From Minisyncoccia bacterium (GTDB taxonomy: Bacteria > Patescibacteriota > Minisyncoccia > JACQLN01): a DNA stretch of 47,343 nucleotides. Shown in pieces: positions 20,479 to 42,951 of this stretch. Made by a program: the position numbers and the translations under genes. Location: positions 1 to 47,343 of the forward strand of contig JBASTM010000014.1 of NCBI GenBank assembly GCA_049274895.1, read 5' to 3'. The notes beneath the pieces are model-generated. The model was not told the DNA's origin. It did no database searches and worked only from the letters and a program-made list of their open reading frames with translations. Position 1 is the stretch's first letter. Each line of letters begins with the position of its first letter.

Positions 20479-21051
20479 ATGCCTAATTTAGGGAAGAATA
20501 TTCATCGTTTAGGTCCAAATCAACAAAAAGTTATTTTATTGATCTCTGCTGGTGTTGGGCTAAGTCTGGCGAAATCACCCAAACAATATTTTAGGGTGCT
20601 TAAGGAAGTTGGATGGGAATGGCAAAAAATAAACAAACATTCTTTGGAAAAGGCGGTCCGTTCTTTGTATAGATCAAGGTTAATCCGCGAATCAGAAAAC
20701 CCTGATGGTTCTTTGACCATGGTACTAACTGACAAAGGTAAAGATAAAATTATCACTTTTAATATAGATAATATAAAAATCAAGAAGCCCAAAGTATGGG
20801 ACAAAAAGTGGCGTATGGTAGTATTCGATATTCCTGAAAAGAAAAGAGCGGCCCGGGATGCTTTAAGAGAGACTTTAAAGAGGGTAGGTTTTTATGAATA
20901 TCAAAAAAGTGTTTTAGTTTACCCTTATCCCTGCCAGGATGAACTGGATTATTTAATTGAATACTACAATATTAGACCCTATGTTAGAATTGTTACTGCT
21001 GTGGAACTGGATAATGAACTTCATCTTAAGAAAATCTTTAGTGTACCCTGA
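20479..21051 (+). CDS. PaaX-like / Cas2-fold domain protein (winged-helix N-terminus plus WDxxWR-VVFDIPE domain)
   Basis: 190 aa. KVWDKKWRMVVFDIPEKKRAARDALRETLKRVGFYEYQKSVLVYP matches the PaaX C-terminal/Cas2-like pattern. Visibly AT-richer than its neighbours. Confidence 0.6.
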   Translation: MPNLGKNIHRLGPNQQKVILLISAGVGLSLAKSPKQYFRVLKEVGWEWQKINKHSLEKAVRSLYRSRLIRESENPDGSLTMVLTDKGKDKIITFNIDNIKIKKPKVWDKKWRMVVFDIPEKKRAARDALRETLKRVGFYEYQKSVLVYPYPCQDELDYLIEYYNIRPYVRIVTAVELDNELHLKKIFSVP

Positions 21052-21136: not shown

Positions 21137-22855
21137 ATGAATTCACAGGAAATCCGCCAAAAGTTTCTCAAGTTTTTTGAATCGCGAGGGCATAAAGTGG
21201 TGCCGTCGTCGTCTTTAGTTCCCACCGATCCTTCGGTGCTTTTAACCACGGCCGGGATGCAGCAGTTTAAGCCGTATTTTACGGGCGAGAAGGATCCGGT
21301 GGCCGATTTTGGTTCCAAAAACACGGTTTCCGTGCAAAAATCGTTTCGCACCTCCGACATAGACGAAGTCGGCGACGAATCACACCTTACCTTTTTTGAG
21401 ATGTTGGGCAACTTTAGTTTCGGCGGTTATTGGAAAGAGGAAGCGATCAAATATGCTTATGAGTTTATTACCCAAGAATTGAATTTTGTTATTGATTACG
21501 TCAGTGTTTTCCGGGGTGATTCAGAAGTTCCAGCCGACAGCGAATCCGAATCTATTTGGAGTTCGCTCGGCATTACCGATATCAGAAAAGCCGGCCGTGA
21601 GGACAATTTTTGGGGCCCGACCGGCGCGGAGGGTCCCTGCGGCCCAACTACGGAAATATACATAAACGGTGTGGAGATTTGGAATTTAGTCTTCAACGAA
21701 TACTACTGCAAGCCCGATAAAACTTTAGAGCCGTTAAAAATCAAAGGCGTGGACACCGGCATGGGCCTGGATCGGCTAGCGGCCGCGGTCCAAAACAAAA
21801 AAAACATCTTCGAGACGGATCTTTTCCAGCCAATTTTAAAAATCCTGCCCGAGATCATAGATTCTCGCCATCGCAGAATCACAGCCGATCATCTGCGAGC
21901 CTCGGTGTTTCTTTTGGCCGACGGCGTAATACCATCCAATAAAGATCGTGGTTATGTTTTACGCCGTCTACTGCGGCGAGTCTTCGCTTACGAACATATC
22001 TATAAACTTTCACCTCAAGTTTTTGAGTCTGTAATCATTTCGGTTATAGATAATTACGGATTTTTTTATTCGGAACTTGCTAATCAAAAAGATAATATTA
22101 TAAATAATTATTTTTTGGAATGGGAAAAGTCTAAGAATGCTTTGGAAAATGGGATTAAGAAAATTTTTGAATTTGATAAAATTGATGCTCCGATCGCTTT
22201 TAACCTGCATCAAACATTTGGTATTACATATGACATTATAAAAGAAGTTGGTGGTGTTAAAGCGGAAAGTTTGACTCCAGAAGATTTTGAAGCCGAGTTT
22301 AGAAAACATCAAGAAATTTCCCGGGCCGGAGCGGAAAAAAAGTTCGGCGGACATGGCATCACCGAAGGGGATCTCACCGCGGCTAATCTGGAGGAATTAA
22401 AAATAAAAACACGTTTGCACACCGCCACCCATTTATTAAACGCGGCTTTGCATAGGGTTCTGGGTGATCAGGTTTCACAAAGAGGTTCCGATATTACAGC
22501 CGAGCGCACCCGGTTTGATTTTTCTTTTAACAGGAAGCTGATGCCCGAGGAAATTAAGCGGGTGGAGGATTTGGTCAACGGTGCCATTGCCGAGAATTAT
22601 CCGGTAACAGCCGAGGTTATGGACCTCGCCGACGCCAAAAAATCCGGCGCGCTCTATTTTGGTGGGGTTAGTTACCCGGATCGGGTCAAAGTTTATTCCA
22701 TAGGTAATTCCTCGACAAGCTCGGAACCTCCTTTTAGTCGGGAGCTTTGCGGCGGGCCGCACGTCGAACGAACGGGCGAGCTGGGAAAATTCCGTATTAT
22801 CAAAGAGGCAGCCTCATCGGCTGGGATCAGGCGGATCAGAGCGGTTGTGGAATAG
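21137..22855 (+). CDS. alaS: Alanyl-tRNA synthetase, short form (catalytic + tRNA-binding + editing domains, no C-Ala domain)
   Basis: 572 aa. N-terminus IRQKFLKFFESRGHKVVPSSSLVP, FEMLGNFSFG, editing-domain HTATHLL and CGGPHV. Ends right after the editing domain. Confidence 0.9.
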   Translation: MNSQEIRQKFLKFFESRGHKVVPSSSLVPTDPSVLLTTAGMQQFKPYFTGEKDPVADFGSKNTVSVQKSFRTSDIDEVGDESHLTFFEMLGNFSFGGYWKEEAIKYAYEFITQELNFVIDYVSVFRGDSEVPADSESESIWSSLGITDIRKAGREDNFWGPTGAEGPCGPTTEIYINGVEIWNLVFNEYYCKPDKTLEPLKIKGVDTGMGLDRLAAAVQNKKNIFETDLFQPILKILPEIIDSRHRRITADHLRASVFLLADGVIPSNKDRGYVLRRLLRRVFAYEHIYKLSPQVFESVIISVIDNYGFFYSELANQKDNIINNYFLEWEKSKNALENGIKKIFEFDKIDAPIAFNLHQTFGITYDIIKEVGGVKAESLTPEDFEAEFRKHQEISRAGAEKKFGGHGITEGDLTAANLEELKIKTRLHTATHLLNAALHRVLGDQVSQRGSDITAERTRFDFSFNRKLMPEEIKRVEDLVNGAIAENYPVTAEVMDLADAKKSGALYFGGVSYPDRVKVYSIGNSSTSSEPPFSRELCGGPHVERTGELGKFRIIKEAASSAGIRRIRAVVE

Positions 22856-42673: not shown

Positions 42674-42713
42674 GGAAATAAAAATCCCCTCCGACGACGT
42701 TGCATCGGAGGGG
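42674..42713 (-). terminator. Intrinsic terminator of the tRNA-like transcription unit
   Basis: Minus strand reads CCCCTCCGA-N10-TCGGAGGGG followed by ATTTTTATTT. Confidence 0.75.
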
Positions 42714-42743
42714 TGTAAGGCCCAGCGGCGGGCCTTGTTTAAC

Positions 42744-42813
42744 GACCGGAAGATGTTCTCACGCCGTTGAATGGATCAAGCGCGCTTTTCCATTCAACCC
42801 ACTCTTCCGGTCA
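42744..42813 (-). ncRNA. Unclassified structured RNA immediately 3' of the tRNA-like gene
   Basis: Perfect 10-bp outer stem GACCGGAAGA/TCTTCCGGTC enclosing a perfect 10-bp inner stem GTTGAATGGA/TCCATTCAAC. An extra hairpin at 42717-42736. Lies between the tRNA and the terminator. Confidence 0.45.
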
Positions 42814-42821
42814 TTGATATT

Positions 42822-42900
42822 GGAGCAGAGGATCGGATTCGAACCGATGACCTCTCCCGTTTTGGCCGGGAGCGCTCTACCTGGCTGAGCTACCTCCGCT
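42822..42900 (-). tRNA. tRNA-like gene with encoded CCA; Gly-like acceptor stem and U73 discriminator; non-canonical 19-nt anticodon arm; isotype unresolved
   Basis: rc = GCGGAGG TA GCTC AGCCAGGTA GAGC G CTCCCG GCCAAAA CGGGAG AGGTC ATCGG TTCGAAT CCGAT CCTCTGC T CCA. Canonical acceptor, D and T arms. The anticodon arm is 2 nt too long and lacks U33. Confidence 0.6.
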
Positions 42901-42922
42901 CCTGAAAGAACAGTAGAAACCA

Positions 42923-42951
42923 TCCTAAACCATAGCTGTTTCTATGTCAAT
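42923..42951 (-). promoter_or_regulatory. Promoter TTGACA-17-TAGGAT for the tRNA-like unit
   Basis: Minus strand: TTGACA (rc of 42946-42951), 17-nt spacer, TAGGAT (rc of 42923-42928). About 22 nt upstream of the tRNA 5' end. Confidence 0.65.

What the first reader, a model, noticed from the sequence alone, without database searches (positions are those of the whole stretch)
42822..42900. tRNA-like gene with canonical arms but a 2-nt-too-long anticodon arm lacking U33
- The minus-strand sequence folds with a perfect 7-bp acceptor stem (G1-C72, C2-G71, G3-U70...).
- Other canonical features are U8, a GG-containing D-loop, a 5-nt variable loop, a TTCGAAT T-loop, discriminator U and an encoded CCA.
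- The acceptor stem and discriminator resemble bacterial tRNA-Gly (GCGGxxG...U73).
- The anticodon arm, CTCCCG-GCCAAAA-CGGGAG, is 19 nt rather than 17. It reads either as a 6-bp stem with a 7-nt loop GCCAAAA (C at position 33, nominal anticodon CAA) or as a 5-bp stem with a 9-nt loop GGCCAAAAC containing GCC.
- Neither reading is a standard decoder.
- The possibilities are an unusual or expanded-loop decoder, a tRNA-like processing handle for the downstream RNA, or a sequencing indel.
- It has its own TTGACA-17-TAGGAT promoter.
Basis: seen in the sequence. Interest (0 to 1): 0.6.

Follow-up and report, generated by a model that had tools for sequence, protein, structure and literature searches.

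The report
Non-decoding tRNA look-alike in CPR bacterium
A tiny groundwater (Parcubacteria/CPR) bacterium carries one extra, perfectly folded tRNA-shaped gene whose anticodon arm has been rebuilt so that it almost certainly cannot read codons; it is a lineage-specific curiosity at a locus that collects odd tRNA look-alikes in related species.

Summary

- **Structure.** The tRNA body is flawless. The anticodon arm is 19 nt: either 5 bp with the 9-nt loop GGCCAAAAC, or, 3.8 kcal/mol better, 6 bp with the loop GCCAAAA. The loop holds no U.
- **Not a simple indel.** No 2-nt deletion restores a normal loop, and the nearest Gly(GCC) and Thr(GGU) arms differ at four or more places.
- **Not needed for decoding.** Leu(CAA) and Gly(GCC) tRNAs exist elsewhere. 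tRNA-Trp and Thr(UGU) are missing, but with rpmG they form one block in relatives, next to the tRNA at which contig C10 breaks.
- **Singleton.** I found no copy in GTDB genomes, JGI metagenomes, IMG/VR or phages.
- **Locus.** Its promoter and leader are orthologous in four congeners. There the cargo differs: tRNA-His, a cloverleaf-like small RNA, and tRNA look-alikes with inserted hairpins or another 9-nt loop.
- **Acceptor.** It is Gly-like (G1:C72, C2:G71, U73) but carries G3:U70, otherwise seen only in the three tRNA-Ala genes.

My reading is an expressed, non-decoding tRNA-shaped RNA: a processing module for the co-transcribed hairpin RNA, possibly also chargeable. No reads or RNA data could be consulted. 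The scan has found related odd tRNA look-alikes in other Parcubacteria genomes.

The parts
42945..42950 (-). -35 box TTGACA of the operon promoter
   Evidence: Promoter scan, 10 of 12 consensus positions. The promoter-plus-leader pattern occurs once per genome in G000, G001, G003, G006 and G007, with no hits to the control pattern.
42922..42927 (-). -10 box TAGGAT, 17-nt spacer
42900..42921 (-). 5' leader containing the genus-conserved motif CTGTTCTT
   Evidence: Seen in the sequence. The pattern search is.
42821..42899 (-). 79-nt tRNA-shaped gene with encoded CCA
   Evidence: ARAGORN; RF00005 at 53 bits; cloverleaf energies.
42854..42872 (-). 19-nt anticodon arm: stem CUCCC(G)/(C)GGGAG around the loop GGCCAAAAC (or GCCAAAA)
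   Evidence: The loop contains no U.
42744..42812 (-). 69-nt bipartite hairpin RNA co-transcribed 8 nt after the CCA end
   Evidence: The 226-nt unit from the tRNA to the terminator folds with z = -6.35 against shuffles. The hairpin is not repeated in the genome and matches no Rfam family.
42719..42734 (-). Small GC-rich hairpin
42676..42713 (-). Intrinsic terminator: 11-bp stem followed by a U run
   Evidence: The terminator of the G001 operon is similar.

Best explanation
This is an expressed, structurally intact, non-decoding tRNA-shaped RNA. It descends from a class-I tRNA of the Gly(GCC)/Thr(GGU) type.

**Proposed mechanism (inferred unless marked):**
- The conserved sigma-70-type promoter makes a primary transcript of about 240 nt: leader, tRNA-like unit, 69-nt hairpin RNA, small hairpin, terminator.
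- RNase P recognises the canonical acceptor/T-arm/elbow and cuts at G1. RNase P RNA is present in the genome (shown).
- 3' trimming stops at the encoded CCA. Together these cuts separate the tRNA-shaped RNA from the hairpin RNA and give it defined ends. The tRNA unit therefore acts as punctuation and a stabilising module, taking the place that a genuine tRNA-His holds in sister species.

**Why it should not decode:**
- The anticodon arm is a 6-bp helix with the loop GCCAAAA and has no U33.
- None of the compensations seen in real decoders with 6-bp anticodon stems is present.

**Possible charging (inferred).** The body, the CCA end, the Gly-type acceptor and G3:U70 are all intact, so AlaRS, which does not read the anticodon, may still charge the mature RNA. 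GlyRS charging is less likely.
For: - **Canonical body.** RF00005 scores 53 bits and all 22 possible stem pairs are formed, with one G.U. U8, A14, G18-G19, G15:C48 and UUCGAAU are all present.
- **No close relative.**
  - The best match in its own genome is 54-56 of 79 identical.
  - The best match among relatives is 62 of 79, to a Gly(GCC).
  - Stem differences against those are compensatory. Intact stems at this divergence argue for selection on the fold.
- **Rebuilt arm.** It is 19 nt and the loop holds no U. The 6-bp form is 3.8 kcal/mol better than the 5-bp form.
- **Orthologous promoter and leader.** The pattern occurs once per genome in G000 and four congeners.
  - G003, G006 and G007: a real tRNA-His.
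  - G001: a cloverleaf-like sRNA.
  - G004: a tRNA-like gene with a 9-nt loop.
  - G001, G007 and G008: tRNA-likes with 27-38-nt D-loop inserts.
  - Across these, the acceptor and T arms are conserved while the lower halves are free to vary.
- **Transcription unit.** A strongly structured trailer and a terminator follow the gene.
- **Processing enzyme.** RNase P RNA is present at 91.7 bits.
- **Canonical decoders elsewhere.**
  - Leu(CAA) and Gly(GCC, UCC, CCC) tRNAs are present.
  - The missing Trp and Thr(UGU) sit with rpmG in one block next to Tyr/Thr(GGU) in relatives.
  - Contig C10 ends exactly there, and rpmG is also absent from the assembly.
- **Alanine pair.** G3:U70 occurs only in the three tRNA-Ala genes and in this gene among 45 tRNAs. 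AlaRS is encoded at window 21137-22855.
Against: - **Singleton.**
  - Exact and degenerate patterns found no hit in GTDB genomes, JGI metagenomes or IMG/VR.
  - The phage collection gave only generic tRNA similarity.
  - No covariation or conservation test of this particular RNA is therefore possible.
- **Dispensable position.** The closest congener with the locus (G001) has no tRNA unit there.
- **Features a handle does not need.** A processing handle needs neither an encoded CCA, nor G3:U70, nor a perfect anticodon helix.
- **Encoded CCA and RNase Z.** From established knowledge, an encoded CCA normally blocks RNase Z. Release of the downstream hairpin would then need another endonuclease.
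- **Folding.** The MFE fold of the isolated sequence is a rod 1 kcal/mol below the cloverleaf. This is common for unmodified tRNAs.
Confidence: 0.4

Rival explanations
1. It is a recently inactivated tRNA gene, a pseudo-tRNA relic with no function. It is still transcribed only because it sits behind a strong promoter that serves the rest of the operon.
For: - It is a singleton.
- The cargo of this locus turns over quickly among congeners, and G001 has nothing at this position.
- All plausible codons are served by other tRNAs.
- tRNA fragments and remnants are common in these genomes.
Against: - There is no stem mismatch in 22 pairs and no lost tertiary nucleotide, despite at least 21% divergence from every tRNA found.
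- The arm is not damaged. It has been re-formed into a perfect longer helix, which needs several coordinated changes.
- The only G.U pair falls on 3:70.
Confidence: 0.23
2. It is a dedicated non-ribosomal aminoacyl carrier. AlaRS would charge it through G3:U70, or GlyRS through the Gly-type acceptor. The remodelled anticodon arm would keep it off the ribosome. It would feed the genome's Fem-family peptidoglycan-bridge transferase, as the non-proteogenic tRNA-Gly species do in staphylococci.
For: - The acceptor is Gly-like and carries G3:U70, with an encoded CCA.
- AlaRS is present.
- A FemAB-family gene scores 99.9 bits at G000:C22:639-1688.
- Neighbouring genes are mreB, mreC and ftsK.
- Precedents: PMC7826273 (non-proteogenic tRNA-Gly) and PMC2175331 (FemX reads acceptor pairs 1:72 and 2:71 and does not need G3:U70).
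Against: - Fem is present in 9 of 10 family relatives, but this tRNA is present in none of them.
- The odd tRNA-likes at the same locus in relatives share no common acceptor identity.
- U73 and C2:G71 are suboptimal for AlaRS, and positions 35-36 are not C35 C36 as GlyRS requires (established identity rules).
- It keeps UUC in the T loop and G18-G19, unlike the staphylococcal species (PMC7826273).
Confidence: 0.1
3. It is a working but unusual decoder. Three forms are conceivable:
- a tRNA with a 6-bp anticodon stem, C33 and anticodon CAA that reads UUG and inserts Ala or Gly;
- the organism's tRNA-Trp, using the CCA triplet in the 9-nt loop;
- a reader of codons of four or five bases.
For: - ARAGORN assigns CAA.
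- Active tRNAs with 6-bp anticodon stems exist: tRNA-Pyl and mt-tRNA-Ser(UCN) (PMC7609411).
- No tRNA-Trp is present in the assembly.
- The string CCAAAAC is shared with the tRNA-Trp anticodon arms of relatives.
Against: - There is no U33, and there is no U anywhere in the loop.
- Two connector nucleotides, a 9-nt D loop and a 5-nt variable loop give none of the compensations that known 6-bp-stem decoders have (PMC7609411).
- A canonical Leu(CAA) exists.
- The absence of Trp is explained by an assembly gap that also removes Thr(UGU) and rpmG.
- The body and the discriminator are unlike the tRNA-Trp of relatives.
- Inserting Ala or Gly at UUG would be proteome-wide mistranslation.
Confidence: 0.08
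4. The 19-nt arm is an assembly or sequencing artefact, and the real gene is an ordinary tRNA.
For: - There is only one assembly and no read-level check.
- The loop contains an A4 run.
Against: - No deletion of two bases gives a loop with U33.
- Against the nearest Gly and Thr arms the differences are multiple and create a perfect helix.
- The site lies in the middle of a 47-kb contig.
- 9-nt loops recur at the same locus in G004.
Confidence: 0.04

Closest known systems
Pseudo-tRNA / tRNA-like element inside a larger RNA: tRNA-Other of Bacillus cereus (PMC3399842)
   Same: It is a tRNA-shaped gene that does not act in translation. It is transcribed as part of a longer RNA, and it may have been recruited to another role.
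   Different: - The body here is fully canonical with an encoded CCA.
- The only defect is a rebuilt anticodon arm.
- It does not flank a genomic island.
- No phenotype or expression data exist.
Non-proteogenic tRNA-Gly of staphylococci, which feed the Fem transferases (PMC7826273)
   Same: It is an extra Gly-type tRNA paralogue in a genome that encodes a Fem-family transferase, and it is expected to be excluded from ribosomal decoding.
   Different: - The staphylococcal species keep a normal UCC anticodon loop and differ in the D and T loops (UGY instead of UUC, no G18-G19).
- This gene keeps those loops and differs in the anticodon arm and at 3:70.
- The staphylococcal lineage is restricted to staphylococci.
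tRNA punctuation and tRNA-linked maturation of neighbouring RNAs (mitochondrial punctuation model; tRNA-sRNA dicistrons)
   Same: A tRNA-shaped unit adjoins a non-tRNA structured RNA in one transcription unit. The acceptor and T arm, which RNase P recognises, are conserved while the rest varies.
   Different: - The idea is untested here.
- The encoded CCA argues against simple RNase Z release.
- The partner hairpin RNA has no known function.
Active tRNAs with 6-bp anticodon stems: tRNA-Pyl and mammalian mt-tRNA-Ser(UCN) (PMC7609411)
   Same: The anticodon stem can form 6 bp around a 7-nt loop.
   Different: - Those tRNAs compensate with a single connector nucleotide, a short D loop and a 3-nt variable loop, and they keep U33.
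- This gene has none of these features.
Frameshift-suppressor tRNAs with expanded loops: sufD, sufJ, SufB2 (PMC4238358 and others)
   Same: The anticodon loop is longer than 7 nt if the stem is read as 5 bp.
   Different: - Those tRNAs carry one inserted base in an otherwise canonical loop.
- Here there are two extra bases, no U33, and a closing G:C pair that removes the expansion.

Membership tests
Canonical elongator tRNA (Rfam RF00005) | Cloverleaf scoring above the gathering threshold; 7-bp acceptor stem, D arm with G18-G19, T arm with UUCRANY | tested here: met
   53 bits against a threshold of 29. The features are read directly from the sequence.
Canonical elongator tRNA (Rfam RF00005) | 5-bp anticodon stem with a 7-nt loop, U33 and purine 37 | tested here: not met
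   The arm is 19 nt. The loop is GGCCAAAAC, or GCCAAAA with a 6-bp stem, and contains no U.
Bacterial tRNA-Gly | U73, G1:C72, C2:G71 | tested here: met
   The first four acceptor bases are the same as in the three resident tRNA-Gly genes. The best full-length match is a Gly(GCC) of a relative.
Bacterial tRNA-Gly | G3:C70, and C35 C36 in register in a 7-nt loop | tested here: not met
   The pair is G3:U70. A GCC triplet is present but displaced towards the 5' side of the loop.
tRNA-Ala | G3:U70 wobble pair | tested here: met
   Among 45 tRNAs, only this gene and the three tRNA-Ala genes have it.
tRNA-Ala | A73 and G2:C71 | tested here: not met
   The gene has U73 and C2:G71.
tRNA-Leu(CAA) (ARAGORN's label) | Class II long variable arm and A73 | tested here: not met
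   The variable loop is 5 nt and the discriminator is U73. A canonical Leu(CAA) lies at C16:8285-8367.
tRNA-Trp | Loop CUCCAAA with CCA at positions 34-36, and G73 | tested here: not met
   All tRNA-Trp genes of relatives have CUCCAAA and G73. Here CCA is preceded by GG and the discriminator is U.
[quoted passage not shown] | One connector nucleotide between the acceptor and D stems, a short D loop and a 3-nt variable loop | tested here: not met
   There are two connectors (U8, A9), a 9-nt D loop and a 5-nt variable loop. The criteria come from PMC7609411.
Staphylococcal non-proteogenic tRNA-Gly | UGY instead of UUC in the T loop, no G18-G19, UCC anticodon, weak EF-Tu binding | tested here: not met
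   UUC and GG are present and there is no UCC. The criteria come from PMC7826273. EF-Tu binding cannot be tested with these tools.
Pseudo-tRNA / tRNA-like element | tRNA-shaped, not used in translation, part of a longer transcript | not testable with these tools
   The shape and the single promoter-to-terminator unit are shown. Non-use in translation is inferred from the arm.

The most novel reading that the evidence does not exclude
The gene encodes a dedicated non-ribosomal amino-acid carrier: a Gly-derived tRNA re-identified for AlaRS by G3:U70. A remodelled anticodon arm excludes it from the ribosome, and it supplies the Fem-family cell-wall transferase of a CPR bacterium. More broadly, the variable tRNA look-alikes at this conserved promoter in the family would form a class of 'top-half-only' tRNAs that work outside translation.
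Probability: 0.1. Interest if true: 0.75.

Novelty: new variant of a known kind. Interest (0 to 1): 0.42.

Why it matters
If the RNA is made and matured, it is a natural example of a bacterial tRNA body kept intact while its decoding end has been rebuilt. That separates the "top-half" functions of a tRNA (RNase P, the CCA end, synthetase recognition) from decoding.

Together with the other aberrant tRNA look-alikes behind the same promoter in sister species, it points to an undescribed use of tRNA-shaped RNAs in ultra-small CPR bacteria. That use could be as processing punctuation, as carriers, or as something else.

By itself it is a single-genome curiosity with no expression data.

Tried and rejected
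- **Read-level and independent-assembly checks.** The indel question rests on sequence argument only.
- **Homologue searches, all empty.**
  - A degenerate pattern holding the loop and its flanks, and an exact 24-mer of the T arm plus acceptor, found nothing in genome contigs or metagenome contigs.
  - Arm and T-arm patterns found nothing in viral contigs.
  - blastn against phages gave only generic tRNA similarity, 81%.
- **Uninformative search.** A loose loop pattern with one mismatch over 400 class genomes gave matches no more frequent than the reversed control.
- **"It is the tRNA-Trp": rejected.**
  - Relatives keep Thr(UGU), a membrane protein, rpmG and tRNA-Trp as one block beside Tyr/Thr(GGU).
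  - G000 contig C10 stops at Tyr.
  - G000 also lacks rpmG and that membrane protein.
- **"Recent duplicate of a resident tRNA": rejected.** The best match is 54-56 of 79 identical.
- **"Derived from the operon's tRNA-His": not supported.** By eye, the similarity is lower than to Gly and Thr.
- **"The trailing hairpin is SRP RNA": rejected.**
  - There is no RF00169 hit.
  - There is no Ffh or FtsY for it to bind.
- **[quoted passage not shown]: rejected.** Its invariant core motif is absent from G000.
- **"The hairpin is a repeat or cassette module": rejected.** It is unique in the genome.
- **Antisense or inverted copy of the arm.** The only look-alike is a terminator hairpin after tRNA-Glu at C8:5881, matching 14 of 15 bases with about 0.06 expected by chance. 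I took this no further.

Full report
**Observation.** The minus strand of the window holds a 79-nt gene at 42821-42899.
- ARAGORN reports it as "tRNA-Leu(caa), anticodon at position 36".
- Rfam's tRNA model scores it at 53 bits against a gathering score of 29. It aligns nine bases where the 7-nt anticodon loop belongs.
  - a 7-bp acceptor stem with G1:C72, C2:G71 and G3:U70;
  - U8 and A9, a 4-bp D stem, and a 9-nt D loop with A14, G15 and G18-G19;
  - G26, a 5-nt variable loop ending in C48, and a 5-bp T stem with loop UUCGAAU;
  - discriminator U and an encoded CCA.
- All stems are perfect. The one G.U pair is at 3:70.
- The anticodon arm (42854-42872) is 19 nt. It reads as 5 bp with the loop GGCCAAAAC, or as 6 bp with GCCAAAA.
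- The 6-bp cloverleaf is 3.8 kcal/mol better than the 5-bp form and lies within 1 kcal/mol of the MFE.
- The promoter TTGACA-17-TAGGAT matches 10 of 12 consensus positions, and an intrinsic terminator lies at 42713-42686.
- Between the CCA end and the terminator lie a 69-nt bipartite hairpin and a small GC hairpin. The 226-nt unit from the tRNA to the terminator folds with z = -6.35 against shuffles.

**Genome context.**
- The window is contig C14 of a 711-kb, 24-contig, 47% GC genome. Earlier notes of this scan call it Parcubacteria/CPR.
- The neighbours are housekeeping genes: mreB, mreC, a DsbA-like gene and a DUF3105 gene on one side, and ftsK, a RodZ-like HTH gene and recA on the other. 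Nothing here looks phage-like.
- The genome has 45 tRNA genes by both ARAGORN and Infernal.

**Is it needed as a decoder?**
- Canonical Leu(CAA) and Gly(GCC, UCC, CCC) genes exist.
- tRNA-Trp(CCA) and tRNA-Thr(UGU) are missing from the assembly. That briefly made the CCA triplet in the odd loop interesting.
- In six relatives, Thr(UGU), a small membrane protein, rpmG (L33) and tRNA-Trp form one block beside Tyr and Thr(GGU).
- G000 contig C10 ends exactly at Thr(GGU)-Tyr.
- tblastn finds neither rpmG nor the membrane protein anywhere in G000.
- The whole block therefore lies in an assembly gap.
- The tRNA-Trp genes of relatives also have the loop CUCCAAA, G73 and unrelated bodies.

**Is it an indel?** Reads could not be consulted.
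- The loop contains no U at all, so no 2-nt deletion can restore a Y32-U33 loop.
- Against its nearest homologues the arm differs at four or more positions. Those changes jointly create a longer perfect helix.
- A single sequencing slip does not do this.

**Origin.**
- No resident tRNA is close. The best is 54-56 of 79 identical.
- Among about 100 tRNAs collected from relatives, the best matches are a Gly(GCC) at 62 of 79 and Thr(GGU) genes at 60 of 79.
- The acceptor (GCGG..., U73) is that of the three resident tRNA-Gly genes. The D and T arms are closest to the Thr(GGU)/Gly(GCC) type.
- Stem differences against these are compensatory.
- G3:U70 occurs in only four of the 45 genes: the three tRNA-Ala genes and this one.
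- Searches of GTDB species genomes, JGI metagenomes, IMG/VR and GenBank phages found no copy. The exact-word scans would miss relatives below about 95% identity.

**The locus in relatives.**
- The promoter plus a leader motif (CTGTTCTT) occurs exactly once in each of G000, G001, G003, G006 and G007, with no control hits.
- In G001, G003 and G007, as in G000, it lies convergent to the DUF3105 gene. The loci are therefore orthologous.
- G004 and G008 carry similar RNA operons beside their DUF3105 gene, but the promoter pattern does not match there.
- The cargo differs from genome to genome:
  - **G003, G006, G007:** a tRNA-His(GUG) comes first, and it is probably their only one. G000 and G001 share an identical, different tRNA-His elsewhere.
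  - **G003 and G007, after the tRNA-His:** an 85-nt cloverleaf-like small RNA with a 7-bp acceptor-like stem and an NCCA end, and then a tRNA look-alike.
    - In G007 the look-alike has a hairpin inserted in the D loop.
    - In G003 it has an anticodon arm of about 44 nt.
  - **G001:** the small RNA first, then a tRNA look-alike with a D-loop insert.
  - **G004:** a tRNA look-alike with another 9-nt loop, then a GCC-anticodon tRNA with an Ala-like acceptor that lacks G3:U70, then a long hairpin.
  - **G008:** a hairpin and two look-alikes with D-loop inserts.
- G000 lacks the small RNA. Its hairpin is unique in the genome and matches no Rfam family.
- The invariant across these loci is the architecture, not a sequence. 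One or more tRNA-shaped units with intact acceptor and T arms, most with an encoded CCA, sit beside a structured non-tRNA RNA. The lower halves of the tRNA units are free to vary.

**Interpretation.**
- *Selection on the fold.* A perfect body at 21% or more divergence from anything known, behind a conserved strong promoter, argues that the tRNA fold is under selection or was acquired very recently from an unsampled source.
- *Decoding unlikely.* The arm is rebuilt and has no U33. It also lacks the compensations that tRNA-Pyl and mt-tRNA-Ser(UCN) use for a 6-bp anticodon stem (PMC7609411).
- *What the comparison suggests.* The pattern points to a function that needs only the acceptor/T-arm half. 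That half is what RNase P and the 3' end-processing enzymes recognise. RNase P RNA is present in the genome.
- *Reading I commit to (about 0.4).* The unit is a non-decoding tRNA-shaped RNA that punctuates and stabilises a small stable-RNA operon.
- *Charging.* It may still be chargeable, because AlaRS ignores the anticodon and G3:U70 is present. AlaRS is encoded at window 21137-22855 as a compact 572-aa form. All processing and charging steps are inferred.

**Rivals.**
- *Neutral relic (0.23).*
  - It fits the singleton status and the fast turnover of the locus.
  - It does not fit the intact stems or the re-formed helix.
- *Dedicated aminoacyl carrier for the Fem-family transferase (0.10).*
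  - The transferase is at G000:C22:639-1688 and scores 99.9 bits.
  - The precedent is the staphylococcal non-proteogenic tRNA-Gly (PMC7826273).
  - Against it, Fem is present in 9 of 10 relatives that lack this tRNA, and the tRNA-likes of relatives share no acceptor identity.
- *Odd decoder (0.08) and artefact (0.04).* Both are discussed above.

**Comparison with known kinds.**
- Functionally it is nearest to pseudo-tRNAs recruited into larger RNAs, such as tRNA-Other of B. cereus (PMC3399842), and to tRNA punctuation.
- It is not a member of tRNA-Gly, tRNA-Ala, tRNA-Leu, tRNA-Trp, the 6-bp-stem decoders, the frameshift suppressors or the staphylococcal non-proteogenic tRNA-Gly. In each case at least one defining feature was tested and not met (see the membership table).
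- Earlier notes of this scan describe similar non-decoding tRNA look-alikes in other Parcubacteria: hairpin-bearing genes, genes with 9-nt loops, and genes lying behind a conserved small RNA. I saw the same operon type independently in G001, G003 and G007.

**Verdict.**
- The feature is real, and I class it as a new variant of a known kind (pseudo-tRNA / tRNA-like RNA).
- Interest is moderate, because it is a single-genome case without RNA data.
- The family-wide locus of variable tRNA look-alikes is the more promising object.

**Side observation.** No Ffh, FtsY or SRP RNA was detectable.
- G000 has none of the three.
- PF00448 (the SRP54-type GTPase of Ffh and FtsY) found none in 30 relatives from 20 families of the class, and RF00169 (SRP RNA) found none in the 10 relatives of its own family.
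- Every protein model hit all 14 control genomes, and the SRP RNA model hit 13 of 14.
- This deserves its own follow-up.

Noticed in passing
whole genome G000 and 30 relatives (20 families of the class): The SRP pathway is not detectable.
- RF00169 (SRP RNA): 0 of 11 family genomes.
- PF02978 (Ffh M domain) and TIGR00959 (ffh): 0 hits in G000.
- PF00448 (the SRP54-type GTPase of Ffh and FtsY): 0 of 31 genomes.
- No ORF of 150 aa or more in G000 carries the DTAGR motif.
- The protein models hit all 14 control genomes and the SRP RNA model hit 13 of 14.
Either this class lacks SRP and FtsY, or they are too divergent to detect.
   Followed up: partly
G000:C10:3-166 (contig end): The contig breaks right after tRNA-Thr(GGU)-tRNA-Tyr. 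In relatives the next block is tRNA-Thr(UGU), a membrane protein, rpmG and tRNA-Trp. All four are absent from the G000 assembly. The '100% complete' genome therefore lacks at least two tRNAs and L33.
   Followed up: yes
L038:768-853 (G007), L032:~500-586 (G001), L037 minus strand (G003): This is a conserved small RNA of about 85 nt in the orthologous operon.
- It has a 7-bp acceptor-like stem and an NCCA end.
- It has a GAAA-capped hairpin and an 8-bp hairpin capped by a GNRA tetraloop.
- It has a 5-bp stem with an 11-nt loop. Overall it is a degenerate cloverleaf.
- It matches no Rfam family and is absent from G000.
   Followed up: partly
L032:590-684 (G001), L038:~860-961 (G007), L035:3124-3228 and downstream (G008), L037 (G003): These are tRNA look-alikes with intact acceptor and T arms.
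- Those in G001, G007 and G008 carry 27-38-nt hairpins inserted in the D loop.
- The one in G003 has an anticodon arm of about 44 nt ending in a 9-nt loop.
   Followed up: partly
L036:2576-2742 minus strand (G004): Two odd tRNAs lie at the syntenic locus.
- One has a 9-nt anticodon loop (UCUAAACGA) and a mismatch in the stem.
- The other has a normal Gly(GCC) loop on an Ala-like acceptor: G1:C72, G2:C71 and A73, but G3:C70.
   Followed up: no
G000:C22:639-1688: A FemAB-family gene (99.9 bits) lies just upstream of tRNA-Gln(UUG). The family is present in 9 of 10 relatives of this CPR family.
   Followed up: partly
window 21137-22855 (+): The AlaRS is compact, at 572 aa. It has the catalytic and tRNA-recognition part plus the tRNA_SAD motif, but no C-terminal C-Ala/DHHA1 domain.
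   Followed up: no
G000:C8:5682-5905: tRNA-Glu(UUC) is followed about 100 nt later by a duplicate of its own 3' end, which looks like an att scar. After that comes a terminator hairpin matching the odd anticodon arm at 14 of 15 bases.
   Followed up: no
G000:C3:15855-15929: A tRNA-Ile(UAU) is present and only two CAU tRNAs were found. AUA is therefore probably read without a lysidine tRNA-Ile2. I did not check for TilS.
   Followed up: no
G000:C24:22989-23060 versus L009/L037/L002: Within one genus, two very different tRNA-His genes are in use. G000 and G001 share an identical one. G003, G006 and G007 have a different one with G-1:C73 followed by ACCA, sitting in the operon.
   Followed up: partly
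window 20479-21051 (+): A 190-aa protein with a PaaX-type central Cas2-like domain lies next to alaS.
   Followed up: no
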